DNA from: Candidatus Omnitrophota bacterium | GTDB lineage: Bacteria > Omnitrophota > Gorgyraeia > Gygaellales > Profunditerraquicolaceae | Length of the DNA: 64,000 nucleotides | Assembly (NCBI GenBank): GCA_025453445.1 | Contig: JALOQJ010000006.1 | Location: 2,308 to 66,307 of the forward strand | Reading direction: 5' to 3' | Shown here: positions 652 to 33,947 of the stretch, piece after piece | Layout of the letters: each line of letters begins with the position of its first letter | Position numbering within the stretch: the first letter of the stretch is position 1 | The notes under the pieces: generated by a model | Databases searched by the model: none | What the model was told of the DNA's origin: nothing | Seen by the model: only the letters and a program-made list of their open reading frames with translations | Translations under genes and position numbers: made by a program

Positions 652-3468
652 ATGAATAGAGCTATTTCTTTTCTTATTGTTACAGCTTTTCTTGTTGTAG
701 GATTTTTTGCCTGTCAATCGCCCGCCTTTAGCCAATCTGAAGCATCTATAGCCTATCTTTGTGAAATTGCGGTTAATTTTTATAAGCAAGGTAGGTATGA
801 AGACGCGCTTTCGGAGTTTAAAAAGGTATTGCTGGTTGATCCTAATAATCCTACTGCTAAAGCCTATATCAGCGTAATTTTTAAGCCTGAGCCGGGTTCG
901 ATAACAACGCAGCCAGCAGTAGCAGGTTCAGTAGCACAAGTAACTAAAATAGCTCCTATTGCTCAGGTAAGAAAAGGAATTCCCGCCACTGCAAAACAAC
1001 CTACAGTACAACCGACTGAAACAAAGATTTCCCGTGAAGAAATTATTAACAGCACTTTAAGCAGTTTTGCTAGAAAAGATGCTGTGCAAAAAACTTCCGA
1101 AAGAACGCCTTTGGAGATTGCCGGAGTTGCTATCAGTGGAGAGGCGCAAGTCAGGATGGGGGTAACTCCTAATGATACAATTTGGAAGCGTGCAAACTGG
1201 GATATGAATGAAAAGAATTACCGTATCCTTTCTACTACTGCTTACGACAGAAAAGAAAATACTTACGATACAAGAGTTTATGATAGATTGCGGGTTAATT
1301 TAGACAGCGGTGGAGAAGAAGGTTTAAGTTTTCATAGCAATATTACAGTGGATCCCTGGAGCTATACCGGTAAAAGCAGTAAATTTATGATTGCAGGAGC
1401 TGGCGGAGATTATGCTGATCTTGAATTAAAATATTGGTCTAATACCGGCTATACTATCAATGAAAATGTTAATACAAAATACAACGGTGATTCTTTTAGC
1501 CTGCCGGAAATTAAAGTTGTGGATGGAAAAATCAGTTTACCTAGCTCGGTCAGTTCGGCATATAATAATATTTTTACTCTTCCTGATACAAAAATCTATT
1601 ATGATTTCCAGCCCCTGAGGGAAATGTGGTTTGACTATAAGCAGGATAACCTGAAATTAAGAGTGTATCCATTTGCTTATGAAAATCAGGCCTTGACTTT
1701 TGATGATCCTTTGAAATCTTCTAATAATCGCACCTGGTGGGAAGATAGCCCTTGGCTGCGTTCCTGGACGCATGGAAATTTCAACAGCGGTGCCACACCG
1801 GTTGATTTTACAAGAGGATATTGGGATAAGTCCTTGTCTTTTTTCACCCGGGACAGCGAAGGCCAACGCCTGACATCCATGCGCGGTTTCTCTTTTCAGT
1901 TTAATCCTTTGGAAGAAACTTCAATTCAAACAAGCGTAGCCTCTCCGAAGACTCTTTGGCAGGATTATTCAGAAATCGATAATTTTCTTTCAGCAACCCG
2001 CTTAAAAACAACTTTATTTAATAAAATCGGCATTGGTGTTACTGCTAACACCCGTTTAGGCTATAATATTGATAACGAAAATAAGCTTGATGCGAAGAAT
2101 TACGTTGTTGGAACAGATATCGGATACGAAATTATCGATGGGTTAAAAGCTAATTTTGAATTTCTACATTCCTTATCGAGATACGACACTACTAATTCAA
2201 CTTATCTTAGTAAACTTAGCGGTAATGCGTATCATATTTCTCTTTTAGGCCGGTTTCCTTTTGAGAGCATTATGAAAACAGACTATGGCTATGACGGGAT
2301 TAAGCCGGAAGATTGGGAAGGCTCATTTACTAAATTTCGGATTTTTGCTACACGTATGGATACGGATTATGATAACTCCTTATCATCCTATGTAGAGACG
2401 CGCGATGATGAATGGTGGAGCAGGCATTTACATTTCCGCAAGCCATTTAAGAATTATTATCAGGGAGAGGGGCAGCTTTTAAGCTGGGATGATATCAGTT
2501 CTTATGGTGTTGGAAACGGCGTTGATTACGGCCGCAGTGTTTTGGGCATGCGCGTGGAGTCTTTCTTCTGGGATAGGGCAGTAACAAACCTTTTTGATGT
2601 ACGCAATGTTCACAACACAAAGAATAAATTTCTTGAAAATACTGCGCGTGATGAGTTAACCTGGTCGATAAATGACAGATTAACTACTAAATTCCTTGGT
2701 ATATATCAGAAGATGCCGAAAACAACAGGAGGAATCGATCCTTTTATATTTGATACTACTACCGGCAGGTACCTAACAAATAGTTATATTGACGACGGGA
2801 TGAACGCAACGATATCTACCGGTTCAGCCGGCTTAGAATACAAATTCTTTGATTGGCTTTCTATGAATGGAACCTGGGAATGTACTAATGATGTATCGCT
2901 GGCTTATGATAATTACCCGAGGGGGATATTGAATAGTGCTAACCGTTCTTTTATTAGTATTGATGAGTATAACCGCAGGTACCGCGATATATTGGCATCT
3001 CTTTATAACCAGCAGTATTTCCCGAAACCGCCCTACCCGTATTACAATATTTTTAAAACCGGATTAGGCTTTAATCCTACGGAAAAACTGGGGATCTATT
3101 TTGATTATACGCGCAACCCTTTTGAAAAAGCCGGGCAGGTTGACGATAATATGAACCACGTTGGTTTTGAAGTATCTTATATGCCAATGCAGAAAATATC
3201 CGTTTTCTTTAAATATTCTTTTTCCCGCTGGCAGGACTTAGATAAGCTTCAGGCAGGCAGTACCAAGCTTTACGGCCATCACAATTTTTTCACTGAATTT
3301 ACCTACCGCAAGTCGCAAGATGAGGATCTTACCTTTCAATACGGCGAAGCAAGCAGAGATCCCTATATGGGCGGGGTTTTGGATATCGGCTGGGATCCTT
3401 ATGGCGGTTCATTGAGGACAATCGATACCCAACATATCGTCCGCCTCTATTACCGCAGAAGATTCTAG
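652..3468 (+). CDS. large secreted protein, probable outer-membrane beta-barrel protein with N-terminal TPR-like segment
   Basis: Signal peptide MNRAISFLIVTAFLVVGFFACQSPAFS; TPR-like YKQGRYEDALSEFKKVLLVDPNN; Pro/Thr/Gln-rich linker; long Y/W/N/D/T-rich body; C-terminal ...YYRRRF aromatic terminus typical of OMPs. Confidence 0.8.
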   Translation: MNRAISFLIVTAFLVVGFFACQSPAFSQSEASIAYLCEIAVNFYKQGRYEDALSEFKKVLLVDPNNPTAKAYISVIFKPEPGSITTQPAVAGSVAQVTKIAPIAQVRKGIPATAKQPTVQPTETKISREEIINSTLSSFARKDAVQKTSERTPLEIAGVAISGEAQVRMGVTPNDTIWKRANWDMNEKNYRILSTTAYDRKENTYDTRVYDRLRVNLDSGGEEGLSFHSNITVDPWSYTGKSSKFMIAGAGGDYADLELKYWSNTGYTINENVNTKYNGDSFSLPEIKVVDGKISLPSSVSSAYNNIFTLPDTKIYYDFQPLREMWFDYKQDNLKLRVYPFAYENQALTFDDPLKSSNNRTWWEDSPWLRSWTHGNFNSGATPVDFTRGYWDKSLSFFTRDSEGQRLTSMRGFSFQFNPLEETSIQTSVASPKTLWQDYSEIDNFLSATRLKTTLFNKIGIGVTANTRLGYNIDNENKLDAKNYVVGTDIGYEIIDGLKANFEFLHSLSRYDTTNSTYLSKLSGNAYHISLLGRFPFESIMKTDYGYDGIKPEDWEGSFTKFRIFATRMDTDYDNSLSSYVETRDDEWWSRHLHFRKPFKNYYQGEGQLLSWDDISSYGVGNGVDYGRSVLGMRVESFFWDRAVTNLFDVRNVHNTKNKFLENTARDELTWSINDRLTTKFLGIYQKMPKTTGGIDPFIFDTTTGRYLTNSYIDDGMNATISTGSAGLEYKFFDWLSMNGTWECTNDVSLAYDNYPRGILNSANRSFISIDEYNRRYRDILASLYNQQYFPKPPYPYYNIFKTGLGFNPTEKLGIYFDYTRNPFEKAGQVDDNMNHVGFEVSYMPMQKISVFFKYSFSRWQDLDKLQAGSTKLYGHHNFFTEFTYRKSQDEDLTFQYGEASRDPYMGGVLDIGWDPYGGSLRTIDTQHIVRLYYRRRF

Positions 3469-3482
3469 TCTAAAAAACTGTT

Positions 3483-3612
3483 AAATCCCAAATTACAATA
3501 CACAAATCACAAACAATACTACAATCACAATACCAAAGTTTAATTTTTCGTTTGGAATTTTGGTAATTTGGTATTGGGATTTGTTTGTAATTTGGAATTT
3601 GTGATTTGGGAT
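3483..3612. repeat. ~130-bp imperfect AT-rich palindrome (caaat/atttg repeat family, copy B) between convergent genes; likely bidirectional terminator or MITE-like element
   Basis: Left arm aaatcccaaattacaatacacaaatcacaaacaa vs right arm ttgtttgtaatttggaatttgtgatttgggattt; inner arms caataccaaag/tttggtattg around centre tttaatttttcg. Confidence 0.75.
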
Positions 3613-6600
3613 TTAGTCTAGATATATGTCTATTCTTTTTATGAGGCGTGACCTTATTTGTTCAGCGTAAGGCGAAGGTATGGTGTCCGAGTGTATTTCT
3701 ACTGACAAGCCATTTTTGTCAGCGAATAAGATTTTCTTGGGAGAAACTTTATTTTTCCCAAAGGTATTACATATTTTTGGGTTATGGTATATTACCTGTA
3801 CTTTACTTAAGAAGTTAAAGCTATAGGTTTTATCTTTTTTCGTAAAGAGCCAACCAACAAGCTGAGGATTGAATTTCAGATTAAGCTGATTGTGATTGTT
3901 TAGGAAAAATGGCTGCCTGCCAAGGTTCATTATCAGCCAAATCTGTAGGAATTCAGCAGTAGATCCGGAAAGCCGCGCTACAAAACCGTTGCCATGCAGA
4001 TTTTTATCCGGGAAAGCACTGCTTGTGATAAATGAAGAATTTTCCAGTACGCTGCGGCCGTATACTGTGGGCTTTAATAAAGGGATAAGTACATTTTTAA
4101 AATCTGAGTAAAATTCTTCCGAAAGCCCATGTTTTAAAATTTCCAGTATATATTTATATTCCATATGTAGCCAAATGGATTCGTTTTCCAGCCAGCCGGG
4201 GGTAAATACTTTGCACCTGCCAATTTCTTCGGGCATATCCTTTAAAGAAGCCGTTACTTTATACATCTTTAACTTTTTATCGTAAAGCGGGCTGCTTTTT
4301 ACTGCCTGATAAAGATTTTTAGCTTCAATAGCATTATTGCTTAAACGCAGAGCATGCATTTGTGATTCCAAAAAGAAGGGGATTTTTACTTGCGAAAATT
4401 TTGTCGGCCGGATATAACGGTTATCCAGCGGATCGTATTCTGTAACAGTATTAATAAAATACGCGTAATACATGCCTTCTTTTTTGTTAAATGCTTTAGC
4501 CAGGCCGAAGTCGATTTTAGCCTGCGCCTTATTCAAGAATTCGATTAATTCTCCAGCAGAAACTTCTATTTCTTTCCCGGAAAAGCCCAATAAGGTATCT
4601 TTACGAAAAGCTTCTTTTAAGGCAGTGGCTTTATCCCAATAAATATAGTCTTTGTCCGGAGAATTACTGTCAGTATGTTCCTGAATTATGCCTTTAAGGG
4701 TAGTTAGGAAGCCGCAGATTTCCTTAGTTAAAGATATTTTATCAATGGCAGTTTTTTCTAAGGCAGTTTTGATAGTAATAAGCAGCCTTTTTAATTCAAA
4801 AGTTTCGCACGTAGAAGAGCCGAAAAGAGCAGGCAGGCCGTTTAAGGCATCATACCAGTTGGGTTTATTGGCTTCCATTTCAATACCCACCCCAAAAGGA
4901 TCGAGTGAGGCGAGCTTATTTACAGCCAGGCAAAATAATTTATTCACAAGATTAGTCTGGTAAATTTCTCCTTCGCCGCAGCCAGACCGCATTTTATTGG
5001 GGAAGTGAATCCGTTTTTTAATCAGGTCTTTTTTATGTGCATCTAAAGTAACTGAATTTAACTGGCGGGGTAAGCCGTTATAGAGGGTATATTTTTCGTT
5101 TCTTGGGCGGACAACTTCGCCATTATCAAAATAGGTAAATACTTTTTTGTTAAAGAAAAGTTCTTTTAACTTCTCCGGGTATATAGATAGGTAATTTTCC
5201 AGTAAATCAAGGTTGTATGCCCAGTGGTCAGTCCAGAAGCCTTCGCCATGTTCAGCCTGCTGGATTTTAAGGCACAAGGGAATTAACAAATTAAGAAAAT
5301 CATCGTAAGGAATGTTTAGTTCAAGGTTATTTTTCTGAATAAAAAGGATTAAATTACCGGGTGTAAAAGGCCTCTTCAGGTAAGTGCTAAGTTTTTCAAT
5401 GGTTGTTGAGTCCATAAGGCCTTTTAAAAATGAATTTAGTTTAACCGTATTATCCAAAGCAAAGCTGACGCCTTTAATTACCAGGGGATTAAAACCGTCT
5501 GTTTGCAGAAGATTAAAGAAAGTAATGATATTTTCGTCTTCAATTTCAGGGTTAAACCAGACATCCATACGGCGGTTCTGATTTACATCGCGGTAATTGC
5601 CGTTTCCCTGAGAAAAATACGATGGTTGTATCTGGAATCTGTTATAGTCTCTTTCCAGGTCGCCGTGTTTTCTAGAGTAAATATAAAGAACCGACTTTTT
5701 TCCACCAGATTCAAATACTATAGGATAGCCGCCGCGTATAATATTATCAAGATAAGTCTGGCGGGTGTAGAGGTTGAATTCTTGAGAGCCGGTTTGCGTA
5801 TCAATATCATCTTGCAGCCCGTTAATAATTAATTTATTAGCCGTTCTTTTTTTGGCCAAATATCCGGATTTAATAATTTTAGGAACGAGCCTATTTAGTG
5901 TTGCTTCATTATGCATATAGCCGGAGAGGGAGTAGAAAATTTTTTCTTCTCCCGGTTTAAGCTGGAAATTAGCAGCCATGAATCCGCAGGGGGTTTTATT
6001 ATCGGTAAGTTCATTTTTTGCAGCGATAAAATTATTTTCACTAATAAATTCATAAGGACAGGAAAAGTCAGTTACCGGGCCAAAGATAGATTGAGGACTA
6101 ACAATAGGCTTTATGATCTTTGGAACTTTTTTTTCATAATGGAAAGCCAGATAAAAGTTACCTTCATCAAGATGGATCACTTCAGGCTTATCAGCAGGAT
6201 CTACGGCTAATTTATAAAAAGGAACATTTTGTTTAAGGTTGTTTACGGTCATCCATGCTTCCAGTGTCCGGCTGAGCTCTTTAAGCAGCCAATGATTCAT
6301 TCCAAAAGGAACAATTTGCGGGAGCCCGTCAAGAAACTGTATTTTTTTTGCTGTTTTAGCGGTATTTTTTACGCTGATTATTCTTACTAATGCGGCATAA
6401 GAATCATCGGGAACGGTGAAATATTCAACATTGATTTTAAGCCCAAGTGTAGCATTAGTTTCTTCAAGCTTTAAATCATACGATGAAATCTTCATTTGGT
6501 TGCTAAGTTTAAAGCCTAAATTCACAAAGCCGTTATGGAATGGTTCGTAGAATATATTTTTTTTACTTCCCGAAGAGACTTTAATAAAAGTGCGGAAACC

Positions 6601-14135: not shown

Positions 14136-14148
14136 ATGGAGGTGAAAA

Positions 14149-14652
14149 ATGGCCTTTAAAAGAAAAATGGAAGAAAAAATTCTTGATGTTGATGCTGCAA
14201 TGCAGGGATCTTTAATTTTTAAAGAAGCAGTAAGCCTGAGGATTAACGGTAAATTTGAAGGCAGCCTGGAGACAAAAGGTAACCTTACTATCGGCCCCAC
14301 GGCTTTGGTTTTGGCTGATATCGTCGGGGATAATGTTATTATTGGCGGAAAGGTCAAAGGCAGGATTACCGCAAAAGACAGGCTGACGCTTTTGCCCAGC
14401 GCTATTGTTGAAGGGGATATTTATCCTGCAAAATTAAATATTGCTGAAGGCGCGATTCTCGAAGGCCGTTGCCTGATGCTGCATGATTTTTTAAACAGCG
14501 AAGAACTTGCTCGTTATCTGGAAGTAGATTTAAATTCTATCCTTGAATGGGCCAATTCAGGAAAAGTTCCTGCGGTAAAAGAAGGCGAACACTGGAAGTT
14601 TGAGAGAAAAGCAATTGATTCTTGGATTGCCTCAGGTAAAATTGGCAAATAA
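14149..14652 (+). CDS. bactofilin-domain protein fused to C-terminal excisionase-type (HTH_17) DNA-binding domain
   Basis: Bactofilin repeat GNLTIGPTALVLADIVGDNVIIGGKVKGRITAKDRLTLLPSAIVEGDIYPAKLNIAEGAILEGRCLM followed by LNSEELARYLEVDLNSILEWANSGKVPAVKEGEHWKFERKAIDSWI; strong SD GGAGGTG upstream. Confidence 0.8.
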   Translation: MAFKRKMEEKILDVDAAMQGSLIFKEAVSLRINGKFEGSLETKGNLTIGPTALVLADIVGDNVIIGGKVKGRITAKDRLTLLPSAIVEGDIYPAKLNIAEGAILEGRCLMLHDFLNSEELARYLEVDLNSILEWANSGKVPAVKEGEHWKFERKAIDSWIASGKIGK

Positions 14653-14663
14653 CTTTTTAAAAA

Positions 14664-14978
14664 ATGGCAGATGAAAAACTTTTAACCATCAGGGATGTTT
14701 CTCATGCTTTAGGCATTTCAGAGAAAGAAGTAATTGATCTCTCTGAAAACGGCGCTATTCCTGCCTATAAAATCGGCGGGGTATATTTAAGATTCAAACG
14801 CCAACAGGTGGATGAATACAGAAAAAAACACCCTGCCCAACACAAAGAAAAACCCGGCGGAAAAAAGAAGTATTCTTACTCAGACAGGGTAAGCGACTTT
14901 TTCTACTTCAATGATTTTTATATACTGGCGCTTATTGTTATCATTCTTATGCTTTTTATTATATTTCGAGGATATTAG
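14664..14978 (+). CDS. excisionase-type HTH (HTH_17) DNA-binding protein with Lys-rich linker and C-terminal transmembrane anchor
   Basis: LLTIRDVSHALGISEKEVIDLSENGAIPAYKIGGVYLRFKRQQVDEY; C-terminal hydrophobic FYILALIVIILMLFIIF. Confidence 0.7.
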   Translation: MADEKLLTIRDVSHALGISEKEVIDLSENGAIPAYKIGGVYLRFKRQQVDEYRKKHPAQHKEKPGGKKKYSYSDRVSDFFYFNDFYILALIVIILMLFIIFRGY

Positions 14979-31028: not shown

Positions 31029-31104
31029 GCCGGCATAGCTCAGTTGGTAGAGCGTCTGTTTTGTAAACAGATGGTCGGGGGTTCGATTCCTCTTGCCGGC
31101 TCCA
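31029..31104 (+). tRNA. tRNA-Thr (anticodon TGT), CCA encoded
   Basis: Acceptor gccggca/tgccggc, anticodon stem tctgt/acaga with loop ttTGTaa, T arm ggggg-ttcgatt-cctct, 3' TCCA. Confidence 0.85.
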
Positions 31105-31126
31105 TTATATATAAGAAATAGCCATG

Positions 31127-31240
31127 CTAAATTCTAAACTCGAAATCCGAAATTCTAAACAAATGCAAACGGATTAATTTAGAAAATTAAGATTTAGATT
31201 TAGTTTAGGATTTAGATATTAGAATTTAGGATTTGTTTTT
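31127..31240. repeat. AT-rich imperfect palindrome (caaat/atttg repeat family, diverged copy C) between tRNA-Thr and tRNA-Tyr
   Basis: Left arm ctaaattctaaactcgaaatccgaaattctaaacaaatgcaaac vs right arm gatttagatttagtttaggatttagatattagaatttaggatttgttt; shares aaacaaatcctaaatt with copy A. Confidence 0.6.
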
Positions 31241-31245
31241 AATAG

Positions 31246-31326
31246 GGCAGGTACCCAAGTGGCCAAAGGGGGCAGACTGTAAATCTGTTGCACTTGTGCT
31301 TCAGAGGTTCGAATCCTCTCCTGCCC
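31246..31326 (+). tRNA. tRNA-Tyr (anticodon GTA), long variable arm, no encoded CCA
   Basis: Acceptor gggcagg/cctgccc, anticodon stem gcaga/tctgt with loop ctGTAaa, long variable arm tgcacttgtgc, T arm gaggttcgaatcctc. Confidence 0.85.
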
Positions 31327-31406
31327 ATTTAAATTTCCCCGACAAGGGAAATTTAAATGGCACTAAAGCGAGCGTTAAACGGCCCGACAAGGGCCGTAGC
31401 GAGCGT
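31327..31406 (+). other. structured tRNA-operon spacer: two hairpins sharing a CCCGACAAGGG core
   Basis: Hairpin 1 ttaaatttccc-cgacaa-gggaaatttaa; hairpin 2 ggcacta-aagcgagcgttaaacggcc-cgacaa-gggccgtagcgagcg-tagtgcc with direct repeat agcgagcgt. Confidence 0.5.
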
Positions 31407-31457
31407 AGTGCCTAGACTAAAAAGCTACAAGTAAAATTTTAATAGCACTGAAAAAAT

Positions 31458-31528
31458 GCGGGAGTAGTTCAGTGGTAGAACAATAGCCTTCCAAGCTATA
31501 TATGGGGGTTCGATTCCCCTCTCCCGCT
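31458..31528 (+). tRNA. tRNA-Gly (anticodon TCC), no encoded CCA
   Basis: Acceptor gcgggag/ctcccgc, anticodon stem atagc/gctat with loop ctTCCaa, T arm ggggg-ttcgatt-cccct. Confidence 0.85.
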
Positions 31529-32957: not shown

Positions 32958-33947
32958 ATGAACATTTCTATAATAGGCGACGGAGGATGGGGTACTACCT
33001 TAGCGATACTTTTGTCAAAAAAAGGCTATCCAGTTACGCTTTGGGGCGCGTTTAAAGAATACACGGACTACCTGAATAAAAAAAGAGTGAATTCAAAATT
33101 CCTGCCCGGAATAAAAATTCCCGCAGGGATTAACATTACACACGACTTAAATGAAGCGCTGCGTGATAAAGAATTAATTGTTCTGGCTGTACCATCGCAA
33201 TATTTACGTAAGGTGATCCGGGAATTTAAAAAAACCGGCTATCCTAAAAAAAGTATTTACTTGAGCGTTACCAAAGGAATCGAGATAAGCACTCTTAAAA
33301 GAATTTCAGAAATAATCAAAGAAGAATTGGGTCCGGTAAAAACAGCTGTTCTTTCAGGGCCGACAATTGCCCATGAGGTGGCTGCGGGCAAACCGACTAC
33401 CGCTGTTATCGCTTCAAAGAATGCAGTTGTCAGAAAACGCTTGCAGGATATTTTTATCACTAAGAGATTCAGGATTTACACTAATGATGATGTAATTGGA
33501 GTGGAATTAGGGGGCAGCTTGAAGAATGTAATTGCCATAGCCTGCGGAATTTCAGACGGCCTGGGTTTTGGAGCAAACACAAAAGCAGCATTGCTTTCCC
33601 GCGGCCTGGCAGAAATTTCCCGGCTGGGCATGAAGATGGGAGCTAAAACTTCGACATTCAGCGGCATCAGCGGCTTAGGAGACCTTGTAACTACCTGCAT
33701 CAGTCAATATAGCCGCAATAGGTTTGTTGGAGAACAGATCGGTAAAGGCAGGAAGTTGAGTGAAATTAAATCCCATATGCAGATGGTTGCCGAAGGAGTG
33801 CCGACAACGCAGTCTGCATATCAGCTAAGCCTGCGTTACAAAGTAAGCATGCCGATTACAAAAGAAATATACGCTGTTCTTTATAAAAATAAATCCGCGC
33901 AACAGGCAGTTAAGGATTTAATGACTAGAAAAAAGAAAGAGGAATAA
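32958..33947 (+). CDS. gpsA: NAD(P)H-dependent glycerol-3-phosphate dehydrogenase
   Basis: ISIIGDGGWGTTLA Rossmann N-terminus and GpsA-specific central motifs; 329 aa. Confidence 0.9.
   Translation: MNISIIGDGGWGTTLAILLSKKGYPVTLWGAFKEYTDYLNKKRVNSKFLPGIKIPAGINITHDLNEALRDKELIVLAVPSQYLRKVIREFKKTGYPKKSIYLSVTKGIEISTLKRISEIIKEELGPVKTAVLSGPTIAHEVAAGKPTTAVIASKNAVVRKRLQDIFITKRFRIYTNDDVIGVELGGSLKNVIAIACGISDGLGFGANTKAALLSRGLAEISRLGMKMGAKTSTFSGISGLGDLVTTCISQYSRNRFVGEQIGKGRKLSEIKSHMQMVAEGVPTTQSAYQLSLRYKVSMPITKEIYAVLYKNKSAQQAVKDLMTRKKKEE

What the first reader, a model, noticed from the sequence alone, without database searches (positions are those of the whole stretch)
14149..14978. Bactofilin fused to an excisionase-type HTH, next to a membrane-anchored HTH protein
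The first gene (167 aa) encodes a complete bactofilin polymerisation domain joined to a C-terminal HTH_17 (excisionase/MerR-like) DNA-binding domain. The next gene (104 aa) encodes another HTH_17 domain, a Lys-rich linker and a C-terminal transmembrane anchor. A filament-forming scaffold with its own DNA-binding domain plus a tail-anchored DNA-binding partner suggests a small DNA-tethering or positioning module. Bactofilins are known as scaffolds for ParAB and cell-wall enzymes, but I do not recognise this fused architecture from characterised bactofilins.
Basis: partly seen in the sequence, partly recalled or inferred. Interest (0 to 1): 0.7.

Follow-up and report, generated by a model that had tools for sequence, protein, structure and literature searches.

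The report
Omnitrophota bactofilin fused to winged helix
A filament-forming scaffold protein of the little-studied Omnitrophota bacteria carries an extra folded domain of a type that normally grips DNA, and its gene almost always sits next to a gene for a small membrane-anchored partner. The pair is real, strongly conserved and uncharacterised, but the extra domain lacks the residues that related proteins need to bind DNA.

Summary
ORF A (14149-14652, 167 aa) is a complete bactofilin beta-helix joined to a C-terminal HTH_17 winged helix. ORF B (14664-14978, 104 aa) has a winged helix, a disordered linker, an invariant aromatic juxtamembrane helix and a C-terminal transmembrane helix.

The module is restricted to Omnitrophota among all named hits. 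At least 427 species-level genomes encode A. A is the most conserved gene of its 10-gene block. A and B are adjacent in 77 of 77 close loci and in 7 of 8 divergent main-family contexts with unrelated neighbours. I found no paper describing the fusion.

The DNA-tether interpretation is only partly supported. A's winged helix is acidic in 83 of 83 clade members. It has Glu or Asp where BldC, RacA and RicO have the arginine that DNA binding requires. Its wing tip is variable and acidic. The Lys-rich linker of B is not conserved.

My best reading (confidence 0.4) is that A polymerises on the membrane through an MFSKKKK-like N-terminus, that B is its dedicated membrane partner, and that A's winged helix is a docking domain. 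If DNA is held at all, B is the likelier binder, which would make the pair a split analogue of RocS/RicO/RacA-DivIVA tethers. I rate it a new variant of a known kind, interest 0.5.

The parts
14138..14144 (+). Shine-Dalgarno-like GGAGGTG, 4 nt upstream of the ATG of A
   Evidence: Read directly from the sequence. It supports the 167-aa start rather than the 161-aa start used in the NCBI record (P0003).
14149..14652 (+). Gene A: bactofilin-winged-helix fusion, 167 aa plus stop
   Evidence: ORF; Pfam Bactofilin plus HTH_17; 1471 homologous clusters with the same two domains; AF2 pLDDT 88.
14149..14178 (+). A residues 1-10, MAFKRKMEEK: basic N-terminus resembling the bactofilin membrane-targeting sequence
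   Evidence: In the 83-sequence clade alignment, M1 is present in 82, A2 in 79, F3 in 82, K4 in 71, K5 in 79 and K6 in 65. The global bactofilin membrane-targeting consensus is MFSKKKK, with F2 and K4/K7 critical in BacA (PMC12448750). The N-terminal charge is +1 to +4 in 37 of 41 members of the wider family. Membrane binding is inferred, not tested.
14179..14472 (+). A residues 11-108: bactofilin beta-helix domain
   Evidence: Pfam 82.4 bits, profile 2-97 of 98. phmmer to BacA 2n3d (E 1e-6) and Thermus bactofilin 6ria. Foldseek to 2n3d gives TM 0.83 normalised to the target, rmsd 2.2. G101-A-I-L104 aligns with the GAFF motif that holds BacA F130, and position 104 is L, F, M or I in 83 of 83.
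14473..14496 (+). A residues 109-116: short junction xMLHDFLN between the beta-helix and the winged helix
   Evidence: C108 (just before it), M110 and D113 are 83 of 83, L111 is 82, F114 is 79 and N116 is 76. In the wider family the linker is 4-21 residues. The AF2 model shows a short strand at 114-115.
14488..14637 (+). A residues 114-163: HTH_17 / excisionase-type winged helix, acidic
   Evidence: Pfam and TIGR01764 hits above their cut-offs. The AF2 topology is alpha1 117-124, alpha2 128-137, beta 143-145 and 148-152, alpha3 153-161. Foldseek to BldC 6ama gives rmsd 1.4-1.5 over 49 residues. Net charge is -1 to -5 in 83 of 83. E133 is Glu or Asp in 83 of 83, at the position of BldC Arg30.
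14664..14978 (+). Gene B: tail-anchored winged-helix protein, 104 aa plus stop, 11 nt after A
   Evidence: ORF; HTH_17; 886 homologous clusters of about 103 aa; AF2 model; adjacent to A in 77 of 77 close loci.
14679..14828 (+). B residues 6-55: HTH_17 winged helix
   Evidence: Pfam 37.1 bits. AF2 shows H9-16, H20-28, E34-37, E41-45, H46-55. R10, E20, Y35, G39, R43 and F44 are invariant in 80 sequences, and D25 (D57, E13, N9) sits at the position of BldC Arg30.
14829..14876 (+). B residues 56-71: variable linker predicted to be disordered (Lys-rich only in this genome)
   Evidence: pLDDT is below 50 for residues 62-67. No residue is conserved at positions 56-73. Charge ranges from -4 to +4.
14877..14921 (+). 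B residues 72-86: juxtamembrane helix with the invariant aromatic motif D-F-F-Y-F-N-D-F-Y
   Evidence: D78, F79, Y81, F82, D84, F85 and Y86 are 80 of 80. AF2 shows helix 72-82. The motif is retained in 6 of 7 divergent B orthologues (27-40% identity for the four aligned).
14922..14975 (+). B residues 87-104: C-terminal transmembrane helix and a tail of 3 residues or fewer
   Evidence: The Kyte-Doolittle maximum is 2.75 at residues 85-103, with 0-4 residues after the hydrophobic stretch in all 80. AF2 shows helix 84-103 with pLDDT 88-95.

Best explanation
The two genes encode a co-inherited two-protein module built on a bactofilin. Among all named hits it is restricted to Omnitrophota.

Shown for protein A: (i) a short basic N-terminus, MAFK(K/R)K, that resembles the bactofilin membrane-targeting consensus MFSKKKK; (ii) a complete bactofilin beta-helix that keeps a hydrophobic residue at the position whose mutation stops BacA polymerising; (iii) a folded winged helix of the excisionase/MerR-like type in place of the usual disordered C-terminal tail, joined through a nearly invariant 8-residue junction.

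Shown for protein B: it is predicted to be a tail-anchored inner-membrane protein, with a cytoplasmic winged helix, a variable disordered linker, an invariant aromatic juxtamembrane helix (DFFYFNDFY) and one C-terminal transmembrane helix.

Inferred: A polymerises on the cytoplasmic face of the membrane, and B is its dedicated membrane-integral partner (a client or an extra anchor), as PbpC is for BacA.

Inferred: the winged helix of A is a docking domain, for B or for another partner, and not a canonical DNA reader. It is acidic in every clade member and has Glu or Asp at the position of the arginine that DNA binding requires in BldC, RacA and RicO.

Inferred and weaker: if DNA is the cargo, it is held by the winged helix of B, which is basic (+4 to +11) in several lineages. 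In that case A supplies the self-association that coiled coils supply in RocS, RicO and RacA, and A plus B would be a split analogue of those chromosome-membrane tethers.
For: Domains and folds.

Functional coupling of A and B: they are adjacent in 77 of 77 close Omnitrophota loci that have downstream DNA. They are adjacent in 7 of 8 divergent main-family contexts whose neighbours differ, namely L083, L086, L088, L089, L090, L091 and L092. The two genes overlap by 4 nt in L083.

Strong constraint on A: median identity is 77.8%, against 54-70% for GatB, TsaD, CdhD and the other genes in the same loci.

Membrane-targeting-like N-terminus: with PMC12448750. That paper also shows that membrane-bound clients help recruit a bactofilin to the membrane.

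Polymerisation-interface residue kept hydrophobic in 83 of 83.

A's winged helix is not canonical: its net charge is -1 to -5 in 83 of 83 and negative in 38 of 41 of the wider family. The BldC contact residues K26, R30, K33 and R47 correspond to N129, E133, N136 and W149, and the wing tip at 147-148 is variable and acidic. Its closest free-standing relative, P0288, has Lys or Arg at these positions.

Precedents for winged helices used in protein contacts: CbpM (3ucs) is among the structural matches; B. subtilis bactofilins BacE and BacF bind the MerR-like HTH protein BacR, which is encoded next to them (PMC13649987); and the HTH of RodZ binds MreB (from my own knowledge; papers listed).

B orthologues keep the winged helix, the aromatic motif and the terminal transmembrane helix at the 27-40% identity measured for four of them.
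Against: No direct test of A-B contact was possible.

Charge complementarity between the two winged helices is weak: rho -0.26, p 0.02 within the clade and not corrected for phylogeny; not significant across 8 lineages.

An acidic recognition helix does not exclude DNA binding. Glu can contact cytosine, as in CAP (from my own knowledge). A keeps W134, S130 and K150, which correspond to the BldC contacts W31, T27 and R48.

The very short invariant junction could cap the C-terminal polymerisation face of the beta-helix, so A might form only dimers. pTM is 0.64, so the orientation of the two domains is uncertain.

One main-family lineage (L087, basic HTH, +4) and the distant clade (L085, L093) lack B, so A-type proteins can work without it.
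Confidence: 0.4

Rival explanations
1. Both winged helices bind DNA. The bactofilin polymer presents an array of DNA-binding domains at the membrane, and B adds a second, integral-membrane DNA anchor. The module would position or compact the chromosome, or a specific locus, as RacA-DivIVA, RocS, RicO or BacNOP-PadC-ParB do.
For: The architecture parallels RocS and RicO, which combine a MerR-type winged helix, a self-association module and a membrane anchor. A transmembrane segment can replace the amphipathic helix of RocS (bioRxiv 10.64898/2026.03.06.710092). RacA and BldC are among the best structural matches to A's C-terminal domain. Bactofilins already organise ParABS in Myxococcus (PMC5703909). 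B's winged helix is basic (+4, +7, +11) and has Lys or Arg at the key position in some divergent lineages. BldC-type domains form head-to-tail filaments on DNA (PMC5859096), which would suit display on a polymer.
Against: A's winged helix is acidic in 83 of 83. It has Glu or Asp at the position of the arginine whose loss abolishes DNA binding in BldC (R30A), RacA (R19A) and RicO (R18A). It lacks three further basic contacts and has a variable acidic wing tip. In this clade B also has Asp at that position and is only about +2. No repeated candidate binding sites were found near the locus.
Confidence: 0.25
2. This is a BacR-like regulatory switch. One or both winged helices act as a transcription regulator, and its access to DNA is controlled by sequestration on the membrane-bound bactofilin polymer. 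The module would sense envelope or polymer state and adjust gene expression.
For: In B. subtilis the MerR-like HTH protein BacR is encoded next to bactofilins. It binds them, they recruit it to the membrane, and it then loses DNA binding (PMC13649987). The Omnitrophota fusion would be a Rosetta-stone version of that partnership.
Against: B is permanently anchored by a transmembrane helix and A is covalently fused, so neither can relocate to the nucleoid without proteolysis. There is no DUF4004 hit. Only 13 nt separate the upstream mgtC-like gene from A, which leaves no room for an autoregulated promoter or operator. The key DNA-contact residues are missing.
Confidence: 0.12
3. A is not a filament. 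The rigidly attached winged helix caps the C-terminal end of the beta-helix, so A forms only N-to-N dimers or small oligomers. The bactofilin domain would then be just a dimerisation or spacer module of a small membrane-peripheral adaptor.
For: The junction is only about 5-8 residues and nearly invariant. AF2 places a short extra strand at residues 114-115 directly after the last turn of the beta-helix. Canonical bactofilins have disordered tails that leave both ends free.
Against: The hydrophobic end residue (L or F at 104) is conserved. Relatives with the same architecture have linkers of up to 21 residues. The very high conservation of the whole beta-helix fits a polymer lattice. Domain packing could not be inspected because no coordinates are returned.
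Confidence: 0.1
4. The pair is part of a mobile element or defence system, that is, an excisionase/recombination directionality factor or the MAD1 component of a MADS system, and its position next to a bactofilin domain is incidental.
For: JGI names the proteins 'excisionase family DNA binding protein'. There are weak hits to MADS MAD1 (NCBIfam 41.7 and 34.4 bits; PADLOC E 1e-3 and 1e-6).
Against: The MAD1 scores are far below the cut-off of 80 bits. There is no integrase, tRNA or repeat boundary next to the genes. The genes sit in a conserved housekeeping block, GatB-CtpB-TsaD-...-CdhD, in 80 genomes. No relative was found in 2.9 million viral contigs.
Confidence: 0.02

Closest known systems
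Canonical bactofilins (C. crescentus BacA, Thermus thermophilus bactofilin, H. pylori CcmA)
   Same: The same Pfam domain over its full length. The same predicted beta-helix fold (Foldseek to 2n3d, TM 0.83). A short basic N-terminus with a hydrophobic residue followed by lysines, like the MFSKKKK membrane-targeting consensus. A hydrophobic residue at the polymerisation-interface position.
   Different: Canonical bactofilins end in a disordered tail. A ends in a folded, highly conserved winged helix attached through a nearly invariant 8-residue junction, and it has a dedicated partner gene. Polymerisation and membrane binding of A are untested.
BacR (YhbD, DUF4004) with bactofilins BacE/BacF of Bacillus subtilis (PMC13649987)
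   Same: A MerR-like HTH protein is genetically linked to bactofilins and physically bound by them, and the complex sits at the membrane.
   Different: They are separate polypeptides. BacR has a DUF4004 C-terminal domain, has no transmembrane helix and binds DNA. They occur in Bacillota. Neither A nor B hits DUF4004. Here one HTH is fused to the bactofilin and the other is anchored by a transmembrane helix.
RocS / RicO / RacA-DivIVA chromosome-membrane tethers of Bacillota (bioRxiv 10.64898/2026.03.06.710092; RacA structure 5i44)
   Same: The parts list is the same: a MerR-type winged helix, a self-associating module and a membrane anchor. RacA is a structural match to A's C-terminal domain.
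   Different: Self-association there is by coiled coil, not by bactofilin, and all parts are in one chain or use DivIVA. The arginine that DNA binding requires (RacA R19, RicO R18) is Glu or Asp in A and Asp in B of this clade. No sequence-level family relationship was shown.
BldC and excisionase-type winged helices (Xis, RdfS; HTH_17 / TIGR01764)
   Same: Pfam and TIGRFAM membership above the cut-offs. The same alpha1-alpha2-beta-beta-alpha3 topology, rmsd 1.4-1.5 A to BldC. These domains oligomerise head-to-tail.
   Different: The BldC DNA contacts K26, R30, K33 and R47 are N, E, N and W in A. Net charge over the same region is about -2, against about +6 for BldC and +4 for RdfS. A and B score far below the BldC subfamily cut-off (16.1 and 12.6 bits against 77).
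BacNOP-PadC-ParABS scaffold of Myxococcus xanthus (PMC5703909)
   Same: A bactofilin scaffold linked to chromosome organisation.
   Different: The link there runs through the adaptor PadC and through ParA/ParB. The bactofilin carries no nucleic-acid-binding fold, and no ParB-like protein is encoded next to A-B.
RodZ-MreB (from my own knowledge; papers listed)
   Same: B resembles RodZ in its layout: a cytoplasmic HTH, a juxtamembrane segment and a single transmembrane helix. The HTH of RodZ binds a cytoskeletal polymer rather than DNA.
   Different: RodZ has an XRE-type HTH and a periplasmic domain, and it partners an actin homologue. B is tail-anchored with 3 or fewer residues outside the membrane. 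No RodZ family hit was seen.

Membership tests
Bactofilin (PF04519 / DUF583) | Sequence match to the family model over its full length, above the curated cut-off | tested here: met
   82.4 bits against a cut-off of 27.9, profile positions 2-97 of 98. phmmer to BacA 2n3d gives E 1e-6 and to Thermus bactofilin gives E 4e-6.
Bactofilin (PF04519 / DUF583) | Right-handed beta-helix fold | tested here: met
   The AF2 model has pLDDT 93-98 across residues 21-110, all strands. Foldseek to 2n3d gives TM 0.83 normalised to the target, rmsd 2.2 over 103 residues. This is a prediction, not an experiment.
Bactofilin (PF04519 / DUF583) | N-terminal membrane-targeting peptide (consensus MFSKKKK: hydrophobic residue 2, lysines at 4 and 7) | tested here: inconclusive
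   The MAFK(K/R)K motif is conserved (F3 in 82 of 83, K4 in 71, K5 in 79), and it resembles the consensus in PMC12448750, shifted by one residue. Membrane binding was not tested.
Bactofilin (PF04519 / DUF583) | Nucleotide-independent polymerisation through hydrophobic end-to-end interfaces (BacA F130) | not testable with these tools
   The aligned position 104 is L, F, M or I in 83 of 83, which is compatible with polymerisation. Whether the attached winged helix leaves the interface free could not be examined.
HTH_17 / excisionase-type winged helix (PF12728, TIGR01764) | Sequence match above the curated cut-offs | tested here: met
   A scores 45.3 bits (cut-off 27) and 33.5 bits (cut-off 28.8). 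B scores 37.1 and 32.1 bits.
HTH_17 / excisionase-type winged helix (PF12728, TIGR01764) | alpha1-alpha2-beta-beta-alpha3 winged-helix fold | tested here: met
   AF2 secondary structure. Foldseek to BldC, RdfS, Xis and RacA gives rmsd 1.3-2.8.
HTH_17 / excisionase-type winged helix (PF12728, TIGR01764) | Basic DNA-contact residues on the recognition helix and wing (BldC K26, R30, K33, H46, R47, R48; RacA R19) | tested here: not met
   In A these positions are N129, E133 (Glu or Asp in 83 of 83), N136, a variable 148, W149 and K150. In B they are K21, D25 and E28. A's domain has a net charge of -1 to -5.
HTH_17 / excisionase-type winged helix (PF12728, TIGR01764) | Binds DNA | not testable with these tools
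   This needs EMSA, fluorescence polarisation or DAP-seq.
BacR / DUF4004 (PF13171) | DUF4004 domain with an N-terminal MerR-like HTH, about 210 aa, cytoplasmic | tested here: not met
   There is no PF13171 hit at E of 0.1 or lower for A or B. Length and architecture also differ. It is a functional analogue only.
MADS defence system component MAD1 (NF047737) | Equivalog score of at least 80 bits, and neighbouring MADS genes | tested here: not met
   The scores are 41.7 and 34.4 bits. The PADLOC hits are weak. The neighbours are housekeeping genes.
Magnetosome protein MamR (NF040990) | Equivalog score of at least 100 bits | tested here: not met
   B scores 14.1 bits.
RocS / RicO / RacA family | MerR-type winged helix with the essential Arg, plus a coiled coil (plus an amphipathic helix in RocS and RicO) | tested here: not met
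   There is structural similarity to the RacA DNA-binding domain only. The Arg is replaced by Glu or Asp. The AF2 models show no coiled coil. No HMM of that family was available to test sequence membership.

The most novel reading that the evidence does not exclude
A and B together are a minimal chromosome-membrane (or nucleoid-organising) tether in which a bactofilin polymer itself, not an adaptor such as PadC or DivIVA, carries or clusters the DNA-binding winged helices. This would be a cytoskeletal DNA-anchoring system specific to the ultra-small Omnitrophota and convergent with RocS, RicO and RacA. In this reading, the acidic winged helix of A either reads DNA non-canonically or gates DNA binding by B.
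Probability: 0.25. Interest if true: 0.75.

Novelty: new variant of a known kind. Interest (0 to 1): 0.5.

Why it matters
Bactofilins are widespread scaffolds, and their clients are normally recruited by disordered tails or adaptors. A bactofilin with a folded, extremely conserved winged-helix domain plus a dedicated tail-anchored partner would be a new way of wiring a bactofilin to its cargo. The module is present in hundreds of Omnitrophota species and is more conserved than the GatB and TsaD genes in the same locus, so it is probably central to the cell biology of a phylum with no cultured model and almost no described cytoskeleton. It also extends the recently reported physical link between bactofilins and MerR-like HTH proteins (BacR) to a second phylum, here as a gene fusion. 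Finally, it offers a compact two-protein system (167 and 104 aa) that can be tested entirely in vitro or in a heterologous host.

Tried and rejected
- The genome scan with the 22-sequence alignment A1 failed because the alignment was too diverse. I repeated it with A2.
- The AlphaFold database fold library was not available.
Models are returned without coordinates or PAE, so neither domain packing in A nor any interface could be inspected.
- BLASTP of A's winged helix against B's found no alignment, so the two are not recent duplicates.
- The promoter and terminator scan gave counts close to the shuffled expectation and no clear operon boundaries.
- Rfam found only four tRNAs.
- The repeat search found no candidate binding-site arrays near the locus.
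- The charge anticorrelation between the two winged helices is weak and uncorrected for phylogeny (rho -0.26, p 0.02). Across 8 lineages it is not significant.
- Apparent stand-alone relatives of the bactofilin half (P0261, P0265, P0267, P0268, P0270, P0291) look like truncated, frameshifted or chimeric gene calls, so they could not serve as a split-gene control.
- I considered and rejected a mobile-element or defence origin.
- I considered a magnetosome link because of the weak MamR hit and the MamF_MmsF neighbour in L085. The MamR score is 14 bits against a cut-off of 100, and the neighbour belongs to a distant paralogous clade.
Full report
**1. The observation**

The window has two adjacent + strand ORFs exactly as reported: A at 14149-14652 (167 aa) and B at 14664-14978 (104 aa), separated by 11 nt.

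- A matches Pfam Bactofilin over the whole model (residues 11-108, 82.4 bits, E 2.8e-23). It also matches HTH_17 (residues 114-163, 45.3 bits, E 1.1e-11).
- B matches HTH_17 (residues 6-55, 37.1 bits). All of these scores are above Pfam's gathering cut-offs.
- Both also pass the TIGR01764 'excisionase family' domain cut-off.
- AlphaFold2 models agree with the domain calls. A is a beta-helix (residues 11-105) followed by an alpha1-alpha2-beta-beta-alpha3 winged helix (117-161), mean pLDDT 88.3 and pTM 0.64.
- B is a winged helix (6-55), a low-confidence stretch (61-71), a helix at 72-82 and a helix at 84-103 with pLDDT 88-95.
- Foldseek against the PDB matches A to C. crescentus BacA (2n3d, target TM 0.83) and Thermus bactofilin. 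It matches the C-terminal domain to BldC (rmsd 1.4-1.5 A), RdfS, RacA, Xis and CbpM.
- A GGAGGTG Shine-Dalgarno sequence lies 4 nt upstream of the ATG at 14149. The NCBI record for this MAG starts the protein at Met7 (161 aa, P0003), which removes a conserved N-terminal motif.

**2. Where the module occurs**

- The window comes from an Omnitrophota MAG. Proteins identical to A and B are recorded on the same 74,463-bp NCBI contig named 'Candidatus Omnitrophica bacterium' (P0003 and P0121).
- A has 1,471 homologous 90%-identity clusters at E of 1e-5 or lower. The best 120 all carry both Pfam domains, are 161-173 aa long and are 79-100% identical. Every named one is from Omnitrophota.
- B has 886 clusters of about 103 aa at 60-100% identity among the best 120 listed.
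- An exhaustive search of 1.84 billion cluster representatives returned about 22 further full-length fusions at 25-57% identity. The rest were plain bactofilins.
- A profile built from the divergent fusions again recovered about 75 two-domain proteins. Every named one is from Omnitrophota or 'PVC group', and hits from other phyla are plain bactofilins.
- At least 427 GTDB species-representative genomes encode a relative.
- No relative was found in 2.9 million viral contigs.

**3. Gene context**

- In the 80 best species-level loci the order GatB-CtpB-polysaccharide deacetylase-TsaD-(MgtC)-A-B-(LarB)-CdhD-RACo is conserved.
- B directly follows A in all 77 loci that extend far enough. MgtC is missing in 5 loci and LarB in 7.
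- That synteny alone could reflect relatedness, so I looked at divergent members.
- B still follows A when the neighbours are DnaE and a kinase/regulator with a chorismate-binding enzyme (L086), or a SPOR protein and a TPR/PDZ protein (L088). The same holds next to a giant protein and ACPS/YdjC (L090), SNase/TilS (L083, where A and B overlap by 4 nt), and tRNA_bind/YjbQ (L091). It also holds for L089 and L092.
- One main-family lineage (L087) lacks B. Its fused winged helix is unusual in being basic (+4).
- A distant clade (25-30% identity; L085, L093) also lacks B.
- A and B are therefore a co-inherited pair, and MgtC and LarB are dispensable neighbours.
- Within the 80 loci A is the most conserved protein of the block, with median identity 77.8% against 54-70% for the nine others, including GatB at 65.8% and TsaD at 63.1%. 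The loci were ranked by identity to A, which inflates this somewhat.

**4. Anatomy of A**

- The N-terminus MAFK(K/R)K is nearly invariant: F3 in 82 of 83, K4 in 71 and K5 in 79. It is basic across the wider family.
- It resembles the bactofilin membrane-targeting sequence: BacA MFSKQAKS, global consensus MFSKKKK, with F2 and K4/K7 critical (PMC12448750).
- The GAFF motif of BacA holds F130, whose mutation abolishes polymerisation. It aligns with G101-A-I-L104 of A. Position 104 is L, F, M or I in 83 of 83.
- The junction C108-x-M-L-H-D-F-L-N116 is almost invariant in this clade. It is replaced by linkers of up to 21 residues in other clades.

**5. Is A's winged helix a DNA-binding domain?**

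The fold says yes, but the residues say probably not in the usual way.

- Aligned to BldC, the published DNA contacts (PMC5859096) map as follows.

| BldC residue | Role in BldC | Position in A |
|---|---|---|
| K26 | base contact | N129 |
| T27 | phosphate | S130 |
| T29 | phosphate | L/M132 |
| R30 | base contact; R30A abolishes binding | E133 (E70, D13 of 83) |
| W31 | phosphate | W134 |
| K33 | phosphate | N136 |
| H46 | minor groove; H46E abolishes binding | 148 (variable: D/E/N/G) |
| R47 | minor-groove docking | W149 |
| R48 | minor-groove docking | K150 |

- The same arginine is essential in RacA (R19). The mutation R18A in RicO is described as equivalent to it (bioRxiv 10.64898/2026.03.06.710092; PMC5859096 states that the RacA arginine corresponds to BldC R30).
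- The domain's net charge is -1 to -5 in 83 of 83 clade members. It is negative in 38 of 41 members of the wider family. Over the same region the aligned parts of BldC and RdfS are about +6 and +4 (my count).
- The closest free-standing relative, P0288, is a protein of three tandem HTH_17 repeats and has Lys or Arg at these positions.
- The recognition-helix surface (N129, S130, E133) is itself strongly conserved. That points to a conserved ligand that is not DNA read in the canonical mode.

**6. Anatomy of B**

- The winged-helix core is conserved, with R10, E20, Y35, G39, R43 and F44 invariant.
- The position of BldC R30 is D25 (D57, E13, N9 of 80).
- Positions 56-73 are unconserved, so the Lys-rich run is specific to this genome.
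- The most conserved element of the whole protein is D78-F-F-Y-F-N-D-F-Y86 (seven positions at 80 of 80). It sits immediately before the terminal hydrophobic helix, which is followed by 0-4 residues.
- Divergent B orthologues (27-40% identity for the four aligned) keep the winged helix and the terminal transmembrane helix, and six of the seven keep the aromatic motif.
- Their winged helices are often basic (+4, +7, +11) and have Lys or Arg at the key position in two lineages. In the window clade the domain is only about +2.
- A's and B's winged helices are not detectably similar to each other by BLASTP.

**7. Interpretation**

Shown:
- The architecture of both proteins.
- The restriction of named hits to one phylum.
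- The co-inheritance of the pair.
- The strong constraint on A.
- A membrane-targeting-like N-terminus.
- A conserved hydrophobic residue at the polymerisation position.
- Loss of the canonical DNA-contact residues in A.

Inferred:
- A polymerises at the membrane.
- B is its dedicated membrane-integral partner, by analogy with BacA and its membrane-bound client PbpC, which can substitute for the membrane-targeting sequence (PMC12448750).
- A's winged helix is a docking domain.

Precedents for the docking reading:
- B. subtilis bactofilins bind the MerR-like HTH protein BacR, which is encoded next to them, and hold it at the membrane (PMC13649987).
- CbpM, a MerR-like fold used for protein binding, is among the structural matches.
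- The HTH of RodZ binds MreB (from my own knowledge).

I give this reading 0.4.

The parts list (winged helix, self-association, membrane anchor) is exactly that of RocS, RicO and RacA-DivIVA, and B is basic in several lineages. A hybrid model, in which B holds DNA and A clusters B, is attractive but untested.

A BacR-like regulatory switch (0.12) is disfavoured for two reasons. Both winged helices are permanently tethered, and only 13 nt separate A from the upstream gene. A mobile-element or defence origin is effectively excluded.

**8. Comparison with what is known, and novelty**

- A is a member of the bactofilin family by sequence and predicted fold.
- Both proteins are members of HTH_17 by sequence and fold, but they fail the DNA-contact-residue test.
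- Neither is a member of DUF4004/BacR, MADS MAD1, MamR or the BldC subfamily.
- Four full-text searches found no paper that describes a bactofilin-HTH fusion or any Omnitrophota bactofilin. Databases carry only automatic names ('polymer-forming cytoskeletal protein', 'excisionase family DNA binding protein').
- I therefore rate it a new variant of a known kind. It is a well-supported, testable lead, and its cargo and mechanism remain open.

Noticed in passing
L085:1-6850 and L093:179-6730: A distant Omnitrophota clade of bactofilin-HTH_17 fusions (25-30% identity to A; P0420, P0376, P0490, P0491) lacks the B partner. In L085 it follows a MamF_MmsF protein, an HTH_31 regulator, an actin-like protein (Volactin PF25216), a ParA/CbiA ATPase with a C-terminal AMPK1_CBM domain and two unknown proteins. 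In L093 it precedes a histidine kinase, a sigma54 response regulator and a gas-vesicle protein. This could be a separate cytoskeletal or positioning cluster.
   Followed up: partly
window:16991-17330: A GC-rich, hairpin-rich insert of about 340 nt lies between the CdhD and RACo genes. It is absent from the 80 related loci (only the last 35 nt or so, next to RACo, are shared) and has no Rfam match.
   Followed up: partly
window:33945-34043: Two perfect 49-nt tandem copies (start-to-start spacing 50 nt) begin at the last base of the ORF ending at 33947. Each contains a GC-rich inverted repeat (GCATGCGGGGGCGTGCCCCGTTGCATC).
   Followed up: no
window:31539-31660: Two 61-nt tandem copies (84% identical) lie directly after the cluster of three tRNA genes at 31029-31528.
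   Followed up: no
window:17-59 and 3574-3616 (also 31128-31162): A 43-nt inverted repeat (93% complementary) rich in AAATC/CAAAT units brackets the 938-aa ORF at 652-3468. A third, partial copy lies in the tRNA cluster.
   Followed up: no
window:14149-14166: The NCBI record for this MAG starts protein A at Met7 (161 aa, P0003). That omits the conserved MAFKRK motif, which is supported by a GGAGGTG ribosome-binding site and by conservation in 83 sequences. The start site is probably mis-annotated.
   Followed up: yes
P0288 (from; sequence): A 231-aa protein consists of three tandem, basic HTH_17 repeats. It is the closest free-standing relative of A's winged helix (E 1.9e-18). Its source organism is unknown.
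   Followed up: no
L088:1-3289 and L090:1-3787: In two divergent lineages the A-B pair lies within 2 kb downstream of very large ORFs (more than 1,303 aa and more than 2,280 aa, both running off the locus) that have no Pfam hit on record. In L090 the large ORF is the immediate upstream neighbour. In L088 a SPOR gene and a TPR/PDZ gene lie between.
   Followed up: no
window:14984-15658 and L089:1829-2581: A LarB-type gene (nickel-pincer cofactor biosynthesis, 280 bits against a cut-off of 175 in the window) follows A-B in the window clade. An AIRC-domain gene, the same Pfam family as the window's LarB, follows A-B in a lineage only 37% identical in A. LarB is missing in 7 of the close loci. This may be ancestral synteny rather than a functional link.
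   Followed up: partly
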